From the IMG/VR virus record IMGVR_UViG_3300025102_000027, positions 1 to 61,299 of that record: a stretch of 61,299 bases of DNA. One strand, written 5' to 3'. Below, piece by piece: positions 13,885-37,247 of this stretch. The translations under genes and the position numbers were made by a program. The notes beneath the pieces are model-generated. The model was given only the letters and a program-made list of their open reading frames with translations, was not told the origin of the DNA and made no database searches. The DNA is from a virus (taxonomy: Duplodnaviria > Caudoviricetes). The stretch's first letter is position 1. Every line of letters begins with the position of its first letter.

Positions 13885-14124
13885 TCATGCTACAATAAAT
13901 TTTCTACCAAACCTCTTTATATACCCTTTTTCCTTCAATTCTTTAATTTTTCTACTGATTGTACGTGGATGCACATCACACAGATCAGCTAAAGTGTTTA
14001 CTGAAGGAAAGCAGGTTCTATTCTTATTACAATAGGTGCATATAACAGCATATACACCTTTTGCTTGTATAGATAGTTCTGGATCAGTAACTACATCTTT
14101 ATTTACTATTCCAAAGGTTTCCAT
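13885..14124 (-). CDS. Helix-turn-helix protein (HTH_36-like)
   Basis: LSIQAKGVY..CFPSVNTLADLC..RTISRKIKELKEKGYI. Confidence 0.8.
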   Translation of the reverse strand: METFGIVNKDVVTDPELSIQAKGVYAVICTYCNKNRTCFPSVNTLADLCDVHPRTISRKIKELKEKGYIKRFGRKFIVA

Positions 14125-14758: not shown

Positions 14759-15379
14759 TCACCATGCAACAACTTTATTTGCATTATATCCTTTATCATC
14801 AGCCTCAGATTTTTTTACTAACACCATTCTACTAATATCCATATCTTTAAACTGTTTTCTAAATCTAGAACCAGCTTCTTGTAAATCTCTCAACATATGA
14901 ATATTATATTTATGACCAAACATATTTAGACCATGGAATTCCACTTCTTTTTTTACACTAACTCCCCATAAACTTAGAGTAAGATCAGTATCATTATCAA
15001 CTTCAAATTCAAAAGGACCAATTATATTATGATAAACTTTAATTTCATTCATTTTTTTCTCCATCCATTTAGGTGCATCATATGTGTGTTCAAATTTTAA
15101 CACAGTTGTTTTACTATCAGTATAATAAATACTTGATACCATACCACCAAAGTATTTATTATGTATAAATAGTTTTTTACCTTCATGACATATACTAACA
15201 GATGCATCATGTCCCTTAAAAGACTTACCTCTATCAACTTTTAATATATTACCATTCATATTATCAGCATGATATATCTCACCACTTGGTCTTTCTTTCT
15301 TTGTACTTGTTATTCTTTCATTTAGATCTGTAAGTACTTCTAGAGCTAATTTTGTATTAGAGTATATAAATTTTTTCAT
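14759..15379 (-). CDS. Hypothetical early protein
   Basis: 206-aa ORF. Confidence 0.75.
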   Translation of the reverse strand: MKKFIYSNTKLALEVLTDLNERITSTKKERPSGEIYHADNMNGNILKVDRGKSFKGHDASVSICHEGKKLFIHNKYFGGMVSSIYYTDSKTTVLKFEHTYDAPKWMEKKMNEIKVYHNIIGPFEFEVDNDTDLTLSLWGVSVKKEVEFHGLNMFGHKYNIHMLRDLQEAGSRFRKQFKDMDISRMVLVKKSEADDKGYNANKVVAW

Positions 15380-15435
15380 TAATTATTATTTAAAAGTGAG
15401 TACATATTTTTCACGCAATATGTTAGCGTTATGTC

Positions 15436-15472
15436 ATTAGTAGAGACAATCCTCTCTATCATCTCTACTAAT
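15436..15472. repeat. 11-bp inverted repeat
   Basis: ATTAGTAGAGA-15nt-TCTCTACTAAT in intergenic region. Confidence 0.7.
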
Positions 15473-15495
15473 AGTGTGTTACTGAGTAAGTGTGA

Positions 15496-15699
15496 TTATT
15501 TAAATAACCACTTCCAAAATCCCAGCGTATAAAGGAGATATGTTACTATCTCAATTATAAGAAAATATGTCTCTCCAAATGGCTCAGGTGCAAATAGTAT
15601 ACTAAATGCAAGAGCAAGTGCAAGACATGTTAATACTGTTGCAAATGCAGGTGCTAAGATAAGAATAGCTATCTTAAGCGGTAAAATAAGATTCTTCAT
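15496..15699 (-). CDS. Small two-TM membrane protein
   Basis: 67 aa, two hydrophobic stretches. Confidence 0.7.
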   Translation of the reverse strand: MKNLILPLKIAILILAPAFATVLTCLALALAFSILFAPEPFGETYFLIIEIVTYLLYTLGFWKWLFK

Positions 15700-15759
15700 A
15701 ATTATATATTTAAGTGAACATTAATTAAATGATTTACTACAGTTTACTCTGTTATAATA

Positions 15760-16157
15760 AATAGTACAGTGAGTGATGAGCAAACTACTCTCACAATGAT
15801 GACTCTTGGGTTCCCCCTTAGACTTCATTAACCCTATGCAGGCGATTAACCTTTATACTCATTATGTTCTCAATATTGATTAGATACCAAGGTTATAACA
15901 TTGTATAGTTCCGTATCAGAACTTCATAAGTTTGCCAGGACTTTAAGATGGCCCTATAGCATTAACGCTTTCAAGATAAGTTATTGTTATCTTGGTTTCA
16001 TCATACTCCAATTGATATATTTAAATAAGATCATACAGTCATTCAACTATACGATCACCCATCATAGGCCAATCAGATGCACTAACCCTCTTGAGAAAGT
16101 TTATTGTGCGACACTCAGGATACGTTGGTAGCTAGCCGTTGTATCCCTTGTACTATT
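15760..16157 (-). ncRNA. Candidate ~400-nt highly structured ncRNA
   Basis: Nested closing helices and internal hairpins whose plus-strand A.C mismatches are G.U pairs on the minus strand. Confidence 0.65.
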
Positions 16158-16267
16158 AAATTAAATAGATTAAGTTACCTAATAAGACTCTGGCGGCTTC
16201 TTAATTTTATAACATCCTGCTTCATTATGCGTTATATACATAAATTGAATGTTATCTATTTATAAAG

Positions 16268-16345
16268 TGGAGATGCTCAGAATTGAACTGAGATACTACA
16301 TAGTACCACAAGTGGTCTTCTATGTAGGCAATACCTATCATCCCC
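16268..16345 (-). ncRNA. tmRNA-like tRNA-like domain lacking the mRNA-like domain
   Basis: GGGGATG/CATCTCC-A acceptor with G3.U70 and A73; stemless D-loop ATAGGTATTGC; CTACATAG/CTATGTAG helix; T-arm CTCAG-TTCAATT-CTGAG; no anticodon loop. Confidence 0.75.
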
Positions 16346-16796
16346 ATGATTTAAACAGTTTTCTCTGTTAGCTTTCCTAGTTCACTATTACCGTGTGTGG
16401 TTCCTAGGTGAATTTGTCCACTTTATATCTGCCCATACTATTAAATTATGGTACAGTTTACTGTTAGAGTTTTTAAGTGTCTCACAACACAAGTTAACTC
16501 AATAACTCTGGTCAGTTCTGTTATTATCCGTCTGATTAGATTTGCGGTTACTATGTCTCTTATCCTATAGAGAGAGAACATAAAGACTATATACTAGCAA
16601 CTACCATCACAGTAGTTTATTGCAGAGAACACCCTTCACATCTCATCTAGGCATTTTGATTGAGCAAACTCACTAGCTATAGCTATATTATTTATTATGG
16701 TTCATTCCATTATATTTTGTGGTGTTAAGTGGTATATTGTGGGAAATAGACTACACTTTTATTGACACACGTGCACAATTAATTAAATAATTGCAA

Positions 16797-17059
16797 CACT
16801 AAACAGAGATTTACCTACATTAGTACATAATGTAACCATTATCACAGGACTTAGGACTAAGTTGAGATAAAACTCTGTTTGAGTGAGTGTCTCCATGCAC
16901 TTTGTTGGGCAAAGTACGTACATTGTTGACGGACAACAATCAAAGCTTACTTGTGGGCTATCAACTCCACAATTGGGCTTTTGGATTACCTTGAGTAACA
17001 CACGAGTAATCTGCTATGGTAGGCCGTGCGGGAGAGGCATTAGCTATTGCTAATCCTCT
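16797..17059 (-). ncRNA. Candidate hairpin-dense structured RNA / 3' UTR of first early gene
   Basis: At least seven consecutive perfect 5-8 bp stems; strand inferred from context only. Confidence 0.5.
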
Positions 17060-17367
17060 GACTCCTGCTTGTCATAGGGCTCTGCCCAAAACAAGCCTGT
17101 CTCTTCACCAGATTCCTGGTCAAGGACTGGAGAATCAGACAATCTGATTCCCTCTAAGACTTGATTTGGTTTAAACCCGTATGAACGAGGATCAACTGTT
17201 TCACCAGTTTCCTCATCCATAATGACAAGAAGACCAAACTTAGCGTTCCCTTGGGTACGCACAGTTGCAGTCTTACCATTGAAAGTCCTTGTGACTTTAT
17301 CAATGGCAGCAGTCTTGACGATAATAGTATTACTATCATCGGCAACCTTGTGGAATAAAACATCCAT
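17050..17367 (-). CDS. First gene of early arm, hypothetical
   Basis: 105 aa, visibly GC-richer than the rest; A-rich leader AAAAAACCAA-ATG. Confidence 0.75.
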   Translation of the reverse strand: MDVLFHKVADDSNTIIVKTAAIDKVTRTFNGKTATVRTQGNAKFGLLVIMDEETGETVDPRSYGFKPNQVLEGIRLSDSPVLDQESGEETGLFWAEPYDKQESED

Positions 17368-17398
17368 TTGGTTTTTTAAGACTTCCCTTGTTTAATTA

Positions 17399-17449
17399 GG
17401 GGGTGGTAACCCACCAATTTTAAGCCGGGGAGCAGAACAATGGGACCCC
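17399..17449. promoter_or_regulatory. GC-rich element at divergence point of early and late arms
   Basis: GGTGG-TAAC-CCACC hairpin and GGGG..CCCC in an otherwise AT-rich genome. Confidence 0.45.
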
Positions 17450-17492
17450 ACGCCAATGCTAAATACACAACAAAACTTTTTTGGGAAAAAAA

Positions 17493-17507
17493 TTTTAAGT
17501 ATATTAT
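17493..17507 (+). promoter_or_regulatory. Late-promoter-like motif (variant)
   Basis: TTTTAAGTATATTAT, resembling repeated TTTTGTATATTAT. Confidence 0.45.
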
Positions 17508-17642
17508 ATAGGTAGGGGGACTAAATAGACACCCAATCCTTTAGTAAAAGGTTTGTGCATTTATATATAACCCTTAGTGTAATGTTGAAGAGTGTGTTTA
17601 ATTATGCCTCTTCTTATGTTTAATTTTATAAATTTTTTAATT

Positions 17643-18065
17643 ATGGCAAATATTTCAATGGCGGCTGCAGAACCTTATTTATATTTTAGAGGGGTAGCTG
17701 ACGAAGACTTATGTGTACAAGCGTCAAAGCTTACTTCAGTACACGCAACTTCTGGTACTAACATCAGATTAACTTTCACTGGCAATGACTATGCATATTC
17801 TCTGTTTGACAGAAAAGACGCAAACAAAGAGACAGCAGGTGAGTGGAAAAATCTTAGACATGTGTATGTTAATCTTACGCATTCTGGTGGTGCAAATTTT
17901 GAAAAGTCGTTCATGAAGAAACTCGTACAAGCTATTAATACTCCTGTTGCTATTGGAGACTCTAGGTCTACATACAACGGAGGATTTATAGTTGTATATG
18001 ATTCTGTTGAGACTGGAGCTAACTTCGCTGGTATATCTGCTGCTGCAGTGACTACTGACGGATAG
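17643..18065 (+). CDS. Hypothetical protein (possible virion protein)
   Basis: Probable start MANISMAAAEPYLYF at 17643. Confidence 0.7.
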   Translation: MANISMAAAEPYLYFRGVADEDLCVQASKLTSVHATSGTNIRLTFTGNDYAYSLFDRKDANKETAGEWKNLRHVYVNLTHSGGANFEKSFMKKLVQAINTPVAIGDSRSTYNGGFIVVYDSVETGANFAGISAAAVTTDG

Positions 18066-18182: not shown

Positions 18183-18482
18183 ATGAGTGAAAAAGAAAAT
18201 AATGAAGAGATCTTTGACGAATATAGTGAATCTGAAAAATATGAAATGGAACAGATGATGATAGAAATGGCGTTTGAAAATTCGTATAAAATTATAACAG
18301 AACAAACAACATTTGAAAAATTATTAGACGCAAGAGGAAATGTAGAAAAAGCAATATTAATTTATGATCCAGTATTAGGATGGGGTAAAAATGAAATAGA
18401 GGATCTAATTTATTATTTTGAAGAAAATGAAGAATATGAAAAATGCGCAAAACTTAAAAGAATATTAGATGTACAATTATAA
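18183..18482 (+). CDS. Hypothetical protein with UVR-like C-terminus
   Basis: YFEENEEYEKCAKLK. Confidence 0.7.
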   Translation: MSEKENNEEIFDEYSESEKYEMEQMMIEMAFENSYKIITEQTTFEKLLDARGNVEKAILIYDPVLGWGKNEIEDLIYYFEENEEYEKCAKLKRILDVQL

Positions 18483-18840
18483 TGCAAAATGTATAAGAGT
18501 AGTTGATGGTGATACCATTGATGCAGATATAGATCTTGGCTTTGGTGTTAAGATTAAAAAAAGAATAAGACTTGCTGGTATTAATGCACCAGAGTCTAGA
18601 ACTAGAAATAAGGTTGAAAAGAAATTAGGATTAGCTGCAAAAGAAAGATTAATTGAAATGATGGAAGGAGCTGCTAATTGCTTTGAACTAGAATCACAAG
18701 AACTTGGTAAGTATGGTAGAGTTCTTGGTAGATTACATATAAATAAGCTTGCAGGTAAAGACACATTAACACAAGTTTGCGTAAATGACTGTCTCGTAAA
18801 AGAAGGTCATGCCGTTGAATATGACGGTGGCAAACGTTAA
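18469..18840 (+). CDS. Thermonuclease (SNase-like)
   Basis: RVVDGDTID, RLAGINAPESRT, GKYGRVLG. Confidence 0.9.
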   Translation: MYNYNAKCIRVVDGDTIDADIDLGFGVKIKKRIRLAGINAPESRTRNKVEKKLGLAAKERLIEMMEGAANCFELESQELGKYGRVLGRLHINKLAGKDTLTQVCVNDCLVKEGHAVEYDGGKR

Positions 18841-35600: not shown

Positions 35601-37247
35601 ATGGCAACTCCGGTTTCAAATAATGGGATTTTTCTAAGAGATACTCAGTATAAAGCTAGTTCACATGTTGATTCTTATCACTTAACAAATATGTTAGGAG
35701 ATGCAGAGCCTATGGATATGGGCCCTATTGATATTTGGGCAATGACACAAAAAGTGGAAATGCCTTTGTATCAGTTAGCATCTTTTGGTGGTCAGAATAC
35801 AATTATGGTGGATAATGCTAGAGGTGAGTACAAATGGCAAACTCCCGTTGCACAAGACCTACCATTTACGGTAGGTAACGTGGATGATACTACTGCTGTC
35901 GCTACAGGTAAACTGGGCGTAGACGGTACTTCATTCCAAATTAAATTAAATAAAAGAGCTTTTGGTCACGGTGATATTATTACTTATGACAAGTATAACG
36001 GTCTTGAACTTTACATTACTTCTGATGATATCATGGAAGCAGGTGATGGATATATTTATACTGTTCAATTAGTTAATAATTCAAACGCAACAGCTTTTGA
36101 TGTCAAATATGTTGCGGCAGGAACTAAATACTTTAGAAAAGGTTCTGCTCGTGGTGAGTACGGTGAAAGATTTTCAGATCTTACAACTGCAACAGGTTTC
36201 AGAGAATTCTACAACTTTGTAGGAGGAGCTGAAGCACACGTTCACTATTCTGTATCTTCTAGAGCTGATCTTATGATCAAAGGAGGTATGAATGCTGATG
36301 GTACTGTTCCAGTTACAGAGATTTGGAGATCATTTGATAATAATATGGATCCATCTGTATCTTCATTGGAAACAATGGTAGAGACTATGGGTGCTGATTA
36401 TGTAAGACGTGCATTTGATAATGGTGATCTTTCTAGAACTTTCCTTACTAATATGGAAGCTGCTCATCTTTCTAAGATAGCAACTGATATTGAGACTTAC
36501 TTAATGTGGGGTAAAGGTGGTAGAGTTAAGCAAGACGGACCAGATGATATTAGATTATCTGTAGGTCTTTGGAAGCAATTAGATAACTCATTTAAAAGAG
36601 TTTATAATAAGTCTTCTTTCAACTTGGATATGTTCAAGGCTGAACTTTACAACTTCTATCAAGGTAAAGTTGAATTAGATGGTCCAGATCCACAAAGATC
36701 ATTAATTGTACAAACAGGTATTGGTGGTATGCAATTGATTAATAAAGCTATTAAAGATGATGTTAGCATGATCAATAATGGTGGAAATAATCCTTGGGTA
36801 ATCAACGCTGATAATGTAGGTGCAGTTACAGGTCAAGGTATGGATATGGGTTATGGATGGTCATTTACATCATTTGTAATTCCATTCTTAGCAAATGTAA
36901 AATTCGTATTGAATCCAGCATTTGATAACTTACATACTAATGATATTGAGAATCCACTTATTGATGGAAGACCTTTAAGTTCTTATTCATTTATAATTTT
37001 TGATATTACTGATCAAGGAAATGATAACATTCACATGTTAAAGCTTTCTTGGGATAATCAATTGAAATGGTTCTACCAAAATGGAACTATGGATTATATG
37101 GGAAGAACTCAAGGTTTTGCTTCTTCTGGTAACTTCAATGGGTATAGGGTCTATATGACTCAAACAATGCCTGCTATTTGGGTTAAAGATCCAAGTAAAG
37201 TATTGAAGATTGTTATGAAGAATCCAACAACTGGCGGATCATTCTAA
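35601..37247 (+). CDS. Major capsid protein
   Basis: 548 aa, crAss-like position; EYKWQ, YLMWGKGG, GLWKQL; strong terminator follows. Confidence 0.85.
   Translation: MATPVSNNGIFLRDTQYKASSHVDSYHLTNMLGDAEPMDMGPIDIWAMTQKVEMPLYQLASFGGQNTIMVDNARGEYKWQTPVAQDLPFTVGNVDDTTAVATGKLGVDGTSFQIKLNKRAFGHGDIITYDKYNGLELYITSDDIMEAGDGYIYTVQLVNNSNATAFDVKYVAAGTKYFRKGSARGEYGERFSDLTTATGFREFYNFVGGAEAHVHYSVSSRADLMIKGGMNADGTVPVTEIWRSFDNNMDPSVSSLETMVETMGADYVRRAFDNGDLSRTFLTNMEAAHLSKIATDIETYLMWGKGGRVKQDGPDDIRLSVGLWKQLDNSFKRVYNKSSFNLDMFKAELYNFYQGKVELDGPDPQRSLIVQTGIGGMQLINKAIKDDVSMINNGGNNPWVINADNVGAVTGQGMDMGYGWSFTSFVIPFLANVKFVLNPAFDNLHTNDIENPLIDGRPLSSYSFIIFDITDQGNDNIHMLKLSWDNQLKWFYQNGTMDYMGRTQGFASSGNFNGYRVYMTQTMPAIWVKDPSKVLKIVMKNPTTGGSF

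What the first reader, a model, noticed from the sequence alone, without database searches (positions are those of the whole stretch)
15760..16157. ~400-nt ornate RNA with four nested long-range helices
Closing helix 15760-15768/16149-16157 (9 bp), then 15770-15775/16112-16117, 15782-15793/16092-16102 and 15796-15802/16059-16065, all nested. Side hairpins include GGATAC/GTATCC (16118-16146), a 12-bp GATCGTATAGTT-GAAT-GACTGTATGATC hairpin (16029-16056, three G.U pairs only on the minus strand), CAAGATAA/TTATCTTG (15972-15994) and 15907-15923. I see no RNase P, group I intron or tmRNA signature motifs.
Basis: partly seen in the sequence, partly recalled or inferred. Interest (0 to 1): 0.78.

Follow-up and report, generated by a model that had tools for sequence, protein, structure and literature searches.

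The report
New 400-nt structured phage RNA
A marine crAss-like phage carries a roughly 400-base, intricately folded non-coding RNA gene that matches no described RNA family, is kept in shape by evolution in related phages, and turns up in ocean RNA libraries.

Summary
The 398-nt unit 15760-16157 is a sharply bounded conserved block.

- Conservation: about 90% identical to a relative whose flanks are only about 69% identical.
- Copies: 14 distinct full-length copies, 79-92% identical.
- Structure: on a 108-pair structure, 98.7% of cells pair and 21 pairs show compensatory changes; slid controls give 35-47% paired and at most 4 such pairs.
- Strand: 204 G.U cells against 6 A.C cells put the RNA on the minus strand.
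- Coding: the plus-strand ORF is broken in 13 of 13 homologues.
- Known families: no Rfam 15 family, tRNA or tmRNA matches.
- RNA libraries: short contigs from four marine RNA libraries lie on the element.

The element is single-copy and accessory. It occupies the exact place where relatives have a small terminator-like hairpin, just upstream of a conserved promoter-like junction motif.

Helices 2-4 can pair but do not covary, and two of them compete with covarying local hairpins.

My reading is a new phage-encoded ornate ncRNA. Its function is unknown; I infer a trans-acting scaffold or decoy.

The parts
15760..16157 (-). The structured RNA element, about 398 nt. RNA 5' end near 16157 and 3' end near 15760-15750.
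   Evidence: Homology boundaries in 14 distinct copies. 108-pair structure with 98.7% of cells paired and 21 covarying pairs. Strand from 204 G.U against 6 A.C cells.
16149..16157 (-). P1 closing helix, 5' strand (AAUAGUACA). It pairs with 15760-15768.
   Evidence: Invariant in 14 of 14, so no covariation. It marks the conservation boundary. Its outer 5 bp are shared with the small hairpin that replaces the element in L011, L024 and L021.
15760..15768 (-). P1 closing helix, 3' strand (UGUACUAUU), followed by the U-rich UAUUAU.
16117..16147 (-). P2 hairpin (GGGAUAC/GUAUCCU plus GG/CC). Its 7-nt loop CUAGCUA holds the self-complementary UAGCUA.
   Evidence: 7+2 pairs, 100% paired, 1 compensatory pair. 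Loop is UAGCUA in 12 of 14 and UAGCUG in 2 of 14.
16079..16109 (-). P3 (GCAC/GUGC) enclosing hairpin P3a.
   Evidence: P3a has 2 compensatory pairs.
16089..16093 (-). S1 (CAAGA) in the loop and 3' side of P3a. It can pair with S3 (15972-15976).
   Evidence: 5 bp paired in 14 of 14, with 2 compensatory pairs split 6 against 8. This split is found in no other column outside S1, S2 and S3.
16007..16077 (-). P4 domain: long-range helix 16070-16077/16007-16014, small hairpin P4a, and the 12-bp hairpin P4b (16029-16056).
   Evidence: P4 has 7 of 8 pairs compensatory, P4b 3 of 12, P4a 1 of 2.
15998..16004 (-). P5 5' strand (AUGAUGA), pairing with 15796-15802. It encloses the central domain.
Evidence: 7 pairs, invariant.
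15972..15994 (-). P5a hairpin (S2 CAAGAUAA / S3 UUAUCUUG). Loop length varies.
   Evidence: 8 bp in 14 of 14. Two variants with 2 compensatory pairs. Loop of 5-13 nt.
15826..15967 (-). Central domain: P6, P6a, P6b, P7, P7a, P8.
   Evidence: P7a has 4 of 8 pairs compensatory; P7 and P8 have 1 each.
15808..15817 (-). P9 hairpin GGG-GGAA-CCC with a GNRA-type loop.
   Evidence: G-C to C-G compensatory change in 2 of 14.
15773..15794 (-). P10 3' hairpin, inside a stretch of about 75 nt that is almost invariant.
   Evidence: Invariant in 14 copies. The 20-mer used for the collection scans came from here.
15734..15753 (-). Junction motif AACAGAGUAAACUGU(A/U)... 5 nt after P1. Promoter-like, upstream of the 67-aa ORF (15496-15699).
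   Evidence: Directly follows the element in 8 of 14 distinct full-length copies and in both partial copies, L071 and L075. One search listed 37 distinct contexts of it, all on the leftward strand.
16350..16369 (-). Upstream copy of the junction motif, about 190 nt before the RNA's 5' end. Candidate promoter of the unit that ends with the element.
   Evidence: The role is inferred.

Best explanation
Window 16157..15760 (minus strand) encodes a previously undescribed structured non-coding RNA of about 400 nt. The phage is a roughly 115-125-kb marine phage distantly related to Crassvirales. The RNA folds into a multi-branched structure closed by a 9-bp helix. That helix encloses a 5' domain (P2-P4), a central domain (P5-P9) and a 3' hairpin (P10).

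Biogenesis (inferred): the RNA lies in the hypervariable cassette region between the divergent gene blocks and points the same way as the leftward block. It is the terminal part of a short transcription unit. It sits exactly where relatives have a 34-44-nt terminator-like hairpin, 5 nt upstream of a conserved promoter-like junction motif. So the closing helix plus the U-rich tract probably defines and protects its 3' end.

Function (inferred, not shown): a stable, abundant, trans-acting RNA that works through its shape, either as a scaffold or decoy for a host or phage protein or as a self-associating RNA. It may include a conformational switch, because two same-sense segments (S1, S2) covary with one shared partner (S3). 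Because it is accessory and sits among shuffled early-region cassettes, I favour a role in host takeover or counter-defence.

My odds: real minus-strand structured RNA about 0.9; trans-acting RNA rather than a mere cis element about 0.6; takeover or counter-defence role about 0.3.
For: Conservation: the block is 90.0% identical to L003 while its flanks are about 69% identical, with sharp boundaries at the closing helix.

Family: there are 14 distinct full-length copies, 79-92% identical, plus 2 partial copies. They come from 5 IMG/VR contigs and 14 of the 15 metagenome loci found (L073 did not match).

Structure: 108 pairs, 1493 of 1512 cells paired, 21 pairs and 82 cells with changes on both sides. 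0 of 500 shuffles reach this. Slid controls give 35-47% paired and at most 4 such pairs. RNAalifold gives -93.8 kcal/mol with a covariation term of -8.8.

Strand: the mirror structure on the plus strand pairs only 85.6% of cells, and there are 204 G.U against 6 A.C cells. On the 5-sequence set the minus strand scores -95.4 (covariation -8.0) against -70.9 (covariation +3.2) for the plus strand.

Non-coding: the ORF is broken in 13 of 13 homologues, and no frame is conserved.

Placement: the element has the same syntenic slot and orientation in every copy whose flanks were long enough to tell.

Copy number: 1 copy in the window's own record, 1 in a 245.6-kb record, and 0 in two near-complete relatives. 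It is present in 4 of the 16 related IMG/VR contigs that span the slot.

Empty site: L011, L024 and L021 have a small hairpin, AATAG...CTATT, at the identical position and spacing. Of 30 distinct junction-motif copies, 11 are preceded by a hairpin with z below -1.5, several of them followed by a U-rich tract.

RNA libraries: 17 RNA runs from 9 studies hold 4-8% of the sampled words. In the 4 runs I laid (4 studies), contigs of 151-458 nt lie on 15741-16207.

S1/S2/S3 coupling.
Against: No function was tested and no partner is known.

The RNA-library evidence is contigs only, so it gives no strand, no ends and no expression level, and DNA carry-over cannot be excluded. The flanks are too diverged (about 69%) to have been laid at the 80% threshold, so their lack of cover says nothing.

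The closing helix, P5 and P10 never vary, so they rest on conservation and energy alone.

The 14 copies are related and recombining, so cell counts overstate the number of independent events. The S1/S2/S3 split may reflect only one or two events.

No intrinsic terminator passes the scanner's criteria at the 3' end: P1 has only 2 G-C pairs.

One laid contig (X1) runs 35 nt past the element into the next gene, and another (X2) starts 50 nt upstream. A discrete 400-nt species is therefore not shown.
Confidence: 0.8

Rival explanations
1. The structure is only a cis-acting element: an oversized terminator, insulator or 3'-end stabiliser for the short upstream transcription unit, or a leader or switch that controls read-through into the downstream early genes. 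On this view it has no trans function.
For: It sits exactly where relatives have a terminator-like hairpin, with the same outer 5 bp and the same 5-nt spacing to the junction motif. The competing S1/S2 pairings with S3 look like a switch. One RNA-library contig continues into the next gene.
Against: A 34-44-nt hairpin does that job in relatives. About 17 helices, invariant single-stranded stretches and a 75-nt invariant domain go far beyond what termination needs. The sequences upstream and downstream differ between copies, so no particular gene is served. The junction motif occurs many times without the element.
Confidence: 0.13
2. It is a mobile DNA element (MITE-like, with terminal inverted repeats) or a degenerate intron-like insertion that targeted a terminator hairpin. 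On this view the helices are by-products.
For: It has a perfect 9-bp terminal inverted repeat, extendable to 25 nt at 76%. It is present in some close relatives and absent in others, with an 'empty site'. Its boundaries are sharp.
Against: There is one copy per record, or none. It always has the same slot and orientation. No target-site duplication is visible. No transposase, reverse transcriptase or intron model is nearby. The 204:6 G.U asymmetry and the compensatory changes in internal helices show selection on an RNA, not on DNA ends.
Confidence: 0.04
3. It is a DNA-level element, such as a replication origin or packaging signal, at the switch between the divergent gene blocks.
For: It lies near the minimum of cumulative GC skew, between divergent blocks.
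Against: It is absent from two near-complete relatives, so it cannot be an essential origin. The strand-asymmetric wobble pairing cannot be explained at the DNA level. The skew switch follows gene orientation.
Confidence: 0.02
4. It encodes a small protein: the 76-aa plus-strand ORF 15901..16131 or another short frame.
For: The ORF is open in the window.
Against: There are stops or frameshifts in 13 of 13 homologues. The longest open frames differ from copy to copy.
Confidence: 0.01

Closest known systems
ROOL and GOLLD RNAs (large 'ornate' RNAs of phages and prophages)
   Same: Phage-encoded, several hundred nucleotides, multi-branched with many covarying helices, no known protein partner or function, and abundant as RNA. 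According to the passages I read of PMC12286853, ROOL and GOLLD are encoded in phages and prophages and form RNA-only multimers held by kissing loops and A-minor contacts.
   Different: There is no sequence or structure match: no Rfam model hits at E up to 10. This RNA is smaller (about 400 nt against about 600-800). It is not next to tRNA genes; the window has none. It is found in marine crAss-like phages. Multimerisation is only suggested here, by a self-complementary loop (UAGCUA), and was not tested.
Long non-coding RNAs of the crAss-like Cellulophaga phage phi14:2 (Drobysheva et al., bioRxiv 10.1101/2020.03.07.982082; passages read)
   Same: Long intergenic transcripts in the early region of a marine crAss-like phage, co-directional with the early genes, more abundant than most mRNAs, and of unknown function.
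   Different: No detectable homology. nhmmer found nothing in the first 12 kb of phi14:2. The covariance model of the 5' domain found nothing in the whole 100-kb genome. The window's phage is only distantly related: the large terminase is about 25% identical to Crassvirales, and the capsid matches Pfam Crass_capsid at 5e-31. The coordinates of the phi14:2 RNAs are in supplementary tables that I could not see.
PeSL cassettes of T4-type phages (composite promoter-terminator motifs that mediate modular shuffling; PMC2839356, PMC4122927; titles and abstract starts seen in the listing)
   Same: A short conserved junction, made of a stem-loop with a U-rich tract followed by a promoter-like motif, flanks small cassettes that are shuffled between related phages in a hyperplastic early region.
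   Different: The motif sequence is different, promoter activity is untested, and the cargo here is a large structured RNA rather than small ORFs.

Membership tests
Any Rfam 15 family (including GOLLD, ROOL, HEARO, OLE, RNase P, tmRNA, group I and II introns, 6S, IMES, manA) | Match to the family's covariance model at its gathering score | tested here: not met
   0 matches in the whole window at gathering thresholds. With E up to 10 on 15300-17800 there are only DdR1 (19.4 bits against a gathering score of 70) and mir-142. On six loci that carry homologues there are only sub-threshold hits. The one that lies on the element is manA, at 15.5 bits against 55.2, E 3.8, in 1 of 6 loci.
tmRNA / tRNA-like | Detected by ARAGORN (tRNA-like domain, tag reading frame) | tested here: not met
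   0 genes in the window.
MITE / transposable element | Terminal inverted repeats | tested here: met
   9-bp perfect repeat, or 25 nt at 76%.
MITE / transposable element | Several dispersed copies per genome and target-site duplications | tested here: not met
   1 copy in the window's record. Among three whole relatives, 1, 0 and 0 copies. The slot and orientation are always the same. No duplication is visible at the flanks.
Cis-regulatory leader / riboswitch | Constant association with one downstream gene or gene family | tested here: not met
   The downstream sequence differs among the 14 copies. The 206-aa family often lies 0.4-1.3 kb downstream, but it is missing in L062 and L077.
Terminator-plus-promoter junction cassette (PeSL-like) | Stem-loop plus U-rich tract directly upstream of a conserved promoter-like motif, flanking shuffled modules | tested here: inconclusive
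   The geometry is met (11 of 30 motif copies have an upstream hairpin with z below -1.5). Modules are shuffled. Promoter and terminator activity cannot be tested with these tools.
phi14:2 lncRNAs | Sequence or structure homology | tested here: not met
   nhmmer and covariance-model searches found nothing.
RNA-only multimers (ROOL/GOLLD-like) | Homo-oligomer formation through conserved intermolecular contacts | not testable with these tools
   The only lead is the self-complementary P2 loop.

The most novel reading that the evidence does not exclude
This would be a new class of ornate phage RNA from ocean crAss-like phages that acts as an RNA machine in its own right. It would be a shape-switching RNA (S1 or S2 pairing alternately with S3) and/or a self-assembling RNA (palindromic UAGCUA kissing loop). 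It would be made early from an accessory cassette to sequester a host factor or blunt a host defence. That would be a marine counterpart of ROOL and GOLLD, with a testable switch.
Probability: 0.2. Interest if true: 0.85.

Novelty: new variant of a known kind. Interest (0 to 1): 0.68.

Why it matters
Large structured non-coding RNAs are rare, and each new class has tended to reveal new biochemistry. Phage examples such as ROOL and GOLLD still have no known function.

This one is compact at about 400 nt. It has a well-defined alignment, an exact 'empty-site' comparison, likely presence in ocean RNA libraries, and a specific three-segment covariation that predicts alternative pairings. Those features make it a tractable subject for probing, cryo-EM and partner hunting.

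It also gives a sequence-level example of the unexplained long non-coding RNAs reported for a cultured marine crAss-like phage. And it shows that the shuffled cassette region of these phages carries RNA cargo as well as small ORFs.

Tried and rejected
Searches that found nothing:
- Phage-collection blastn of 15400-17700: no match.
- PHROGs on eight window proteins: only the large terminase matched.
- The search for related loci with the 206-aa protein: nothing.
- A 20-mer from a variable part found only the two nearest contigs.
- The genome-contig scan gave one chance match, L079, in a 66%-GC contig; only about 30 nt aligns. Metagenome locus L073 is likewise chance.
- The covariance model R1 of the 5' domain found no further copy in 50 other sources (49 related loci and the first 12 kb of phi14:2, L078) or in the whole phi14:2 genome. 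The tool notes that an empty answer without a positive control genome shows little.
- No complementarity longer than 13 nt between the element and the rest of the window, so no antisense target was found.

Rfam: the weak manA hit (15.5 bits, E 3.8, 1 of 6 loci) and the DdR1 hits are treated as chance.

Partner hunt for the 206-aa protein P0001: no Pfam, PADLOC or PHROG family. The AlphaFold model has mean pLDDT 72. Foldseek against the PDB gave a best E of 0.01 and TM below 0.4. The Atlas gave no usable hit. The profile search found 136 representatives, all unnamed. The co-occurrence with the element is therefore only a lead.

RNA libraries: parts of 15300-17700 without contig cover are not evidence of silence. 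The flanks are too diverged for the 80% threshold, and only contigs were laid. The small word shares for the 13 RNA runs I did not lay are not used as evidence of habitat.

phi14:2 intergenic 1620-1983 folds with z -1.36.

Literature searches for this RNA listed nothing that describes it. 'Not in print' rests on these four searches only.

Full report
**Setting.** The window is a 61.3-kb IMG/VR virus record, estimated about 50% complete, with about 30% G+C. Genes run leftward up to 15699 and rightward from about 17600. The capsid protein (35601-37247) matches Pfam Crass_capsid at 5e-31. The large terminase is about 25% identical to Crassvirales terminases. The best isolate match of the capsid is a Leptolyngbya phage at 27%. 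This is therefore a distant crAss-like phage. Near-complete relatives are 114-122 kb. The finding lies in the largely ORF-free gap between the two gene blocks.

**The observation.** Each strand alone folds moderately better than shuffles: z -2.44 for plus and -2.76 for minus, with 1 of 100 shuffles as good in each case. No Rfam 15 family matches the window at gathering thresholds. At E up to 10 around the element there are only chance-level hits. ARAGORN finds nothing.

**Relatives.**
- Through a neighbouring 105-aa gene I found two related contigs. blastn showed that 15739-16174 is 90.0% identical there while both flanks are 68.6-69.6% identical. A 93-nt piece lies on the other side of the element in the relative.
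- A conserved 123-aa nuclease-like gene brought in 54 loci. Of the related IMG/VR contigs that span the slot, 4 of 16 carry the element.
- An invariant 20-mer found the same five IMG/VR contigs and 15 metagenome loci. Twelve of those hold a full-length copy, 2 hold a partial copy, and 1 (L073) is a chance match.
- After removing duplicates there are 14 distinct full-length sequences, 79-92% identical to the window.
- Homology starts and stops at the closing helix.
- The same 20-mer found no true copy among representative genomes of 185,579 prokaryote species.

**It is an RNA, and it is read from the minus strand.**
- RNAalifold on 14 sequences gives -93.8 kcal/mol (covariation term -8.8) and 19 pairs with changes on both sides.
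- I counted a 108-pair structure. 98.7% of 1512 cells pair. 21 pairs and 82 cells have compensatory changes. 0 of 500 shuffles reach these values. Sliding the partners by 1-3 columns gives 35-47% paired and at most 4 such pairs.
- Covariation is strongest in P4 (7 of 8 pairs), P7a (4 of 8), P4b (3 of 12) and P3a (2). P2, P4a, P7, P8 and P9 each have one. P1, P5 and P10 never vary, so covariation neither supports nor contradicts them.
- The mirror structure on the plus strand pairs only 85.6% of cells. There are 204 G.U cells and 6 A.C cells.
- On the first five sequences the minus strand scores -95.4 against -70.9 for the plus strand, with covariation terms of -8.0 and +3.2.
- The plus-strand ORF 15901..16131 has stops or frameshifts in 13 of 13 homologues.

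Across the 14 sequences, helices 2-4 pair in 100%, 96% and 94% of cells, but none of their 24 pairs covaries, because the 3' partner is invariant. Helix 3 overlaps hairpin P3a and helix 4 overlaps hairpin P4a. Both hairpins have compensatory changes. At the positions that discriminate the two models, the long-range versions are broken in 3 and 5 of 14 sequences. Helix 2 (UGAGUG/CACUCA) conflicts only with the base of P10 and the last pair of P2, and it remains possible.

**An unexpected coupling.**
- Hairpin P5a exists in two forms, CAAGAUAA/UUAUCUUG in 6 sequences and CAAAGUAA/UUACUUUG in 8. It forms 8 bp in 14 of 14.
- The loop and 3' side of P3a, about 110 nt away, carries the same swap (CAAGA against CAAAG) in exactly the same 6 and 8 sequences.
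- Of 432 alignment columns, only those of these three segments follow that split.
- The P4 domain lying between them splits the sequences differently, and all four combinations occur. Recombination has therefore happened between them, yet the coupling survives.
- S1 can pair with S3 over 5 bp in 14 of 14 sequences, with 2 compensatory pairs.
- So two same-sense segments compete for one partner. This could be an alternative conformation or an intermolecular contact. It may rest on only one or two evolutionary events, so it is a lead, not a proof.

**Genomic role.**
- The element always lies in the same slot and always points with the leftward block.
- It is single-copy where present and absent from two near-complete relatives.
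- The slot is a mosaic of 80-250-nt modules and small ORFs shuffled among relatives at 85-99% identity.
- A conserved motif, (U)AACAGAGUAAACUGU(A/U)UAAAUC, marks the junctions. One search listed 37 distinct contexts of it, all on the leftward strand, often 30-50 nt before an ATG. It directly follows the element in 8 of 14 distinct full-length copies and in both partial copies, L071 and L075.
- Of 30 distinct motif copies, 11 are preceded by a hairpin with z below -1.5, several of them followed by a U-rich tract.
- L011, L024 and L021 show the 'empty site'. Between the motif and the same upstream module they have a 34-44-nt hairpin, AATAGAGGTA...TACCTCTATT. Its outer 5 bp and its spacing are those of the element's closing helix.
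- I infer that the element replaces, or grew out of, a terminator hairpin, and that P1 plus UAUUAU sets its 3' end. The arrangement resembles the PeSL promoter-terminator cassettes of T4-type phages (listing only).

**Expression.** 17 RNA runs from 9 studies hold 4-8% of the sampled words of 15700-16600. I laid four of them, from four studies. Contigs of 151-458 nt lie on 15741-16207. Others lie on 16542-16591 (one run) and 17030-17218 (two runs). These are contigs, so they give no strand, ends or level, and DNA carry-over is possible. One contig continues 35 nt into the next gene and one begins 50 nt upstream. This is consistent with expression but does not prove it.

**What it resembles.** The nearest known things are:
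- ROOL and GOLLD, which are phage-borne, ornate, functionless so far, and form RNA-only multimers through kissing loops (passages of PMC12286853).
- The abundant early long non-coding RNAs of the crAss-like phage phi14:2, whose function 'remains to be determined' (passages of 10.1101/2020.03.07.982082).

Neither is homologous by the tests I could run. The P2 loop holds a self-complementary UAGCUA (12 of 14; UAGCUG in 2 of 14). That is the kind of sequence that makes kissing dimers, but it could also be chance.

**A possible partner.** A 206-aa ORF (14759-15379) lies 0.4-1.3 kb downstream of the element in the window, L072, L060/L076, L067, L068, L071 and L074. Short remnants lie in L064, L065 and L075. 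It is missing in L062 and L077. Among 12 element-free contigs that span the slot, only L016 has a distant (27%) homologue. The family has 136 representatives and no known family or fold. Physical linkage could explain the association.

**Verdict.** The element is a real, new, structured RNA family of marine crAss-like phages. The detailed nesting is not supported.

Noticed in passing
window 15734-15753, 16350-16369 (minus strand); degenerate copy about 16456-16470: A conserved junction motif of about 24 nt, (T)AACAGAGTAAACTGTWTAAATC. One search listed 37 distinct contexts of it in the window and related loci, always on the leftward strand, often 30-50 nt before an ATG and often just after a hairpin plus a U-rich tract. 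It looks like a composite terminator/promoter junction that could drive cassette shuffling.
   Followed up: partly
window 16175-16262, 16266-16356, 16346-16437: Three modules of about 90 nt, each 93-97% identical to pieces in different subsets of relatives and in a different order there. The middle one folds into a Y shape (z -2.37) and also holds a 31-aa minus-strand ORF starting right after the motif.
   Followed up: partly
window 16542-16591 and 16673-16761; promoter-like site 16762-16791 (+): A core conserved in nearly all relatives (92-98% over 50 nt) in the otherwise variable gap, next to a rightward TTGACA-18-AATAAT site with 11 of 12 matches. This may be the control region of the divergent blocks. 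A contig from one RNA library lies on 16542-16591.
   Followed up: no
window 14759-15379 (minus strand), protein P0001: A 206-aa protein of an unnamed family (136 representatives, motifs RGKSFKGH and GHxxNI) that tends to occur downstream of the RNA element. No Pfam, PHROG or PADLOC family and no fold match.
   Followed up: partly
L016 and L027 (one IMG/VR record of 245,646 bases): The record holds two versions of the same region about 126 kb apart, one with the RNA element and one without. It is probably two related genomes joined in assembly, although it is rated 100% complete.
   Followed up: no
window 13885-14124 (minus) and 18469-18840 (plus): A 79-aa helix-turn-helix protein (HTH_36, 2.5e-16) and a 123-aa staphylococcal-nuclease-like protein (4.1e-11) flank the variable region. 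The nuclease-like gene is the best-conserved marker of this phage group.
   Followed up: no
window 16112/16151 (run X1 contig): One RNA-library contig switches strand at the P2 hairpin near the RNA's 5' end. This may be a fold-back cDNA or assembly artefact.
   Followed up: no
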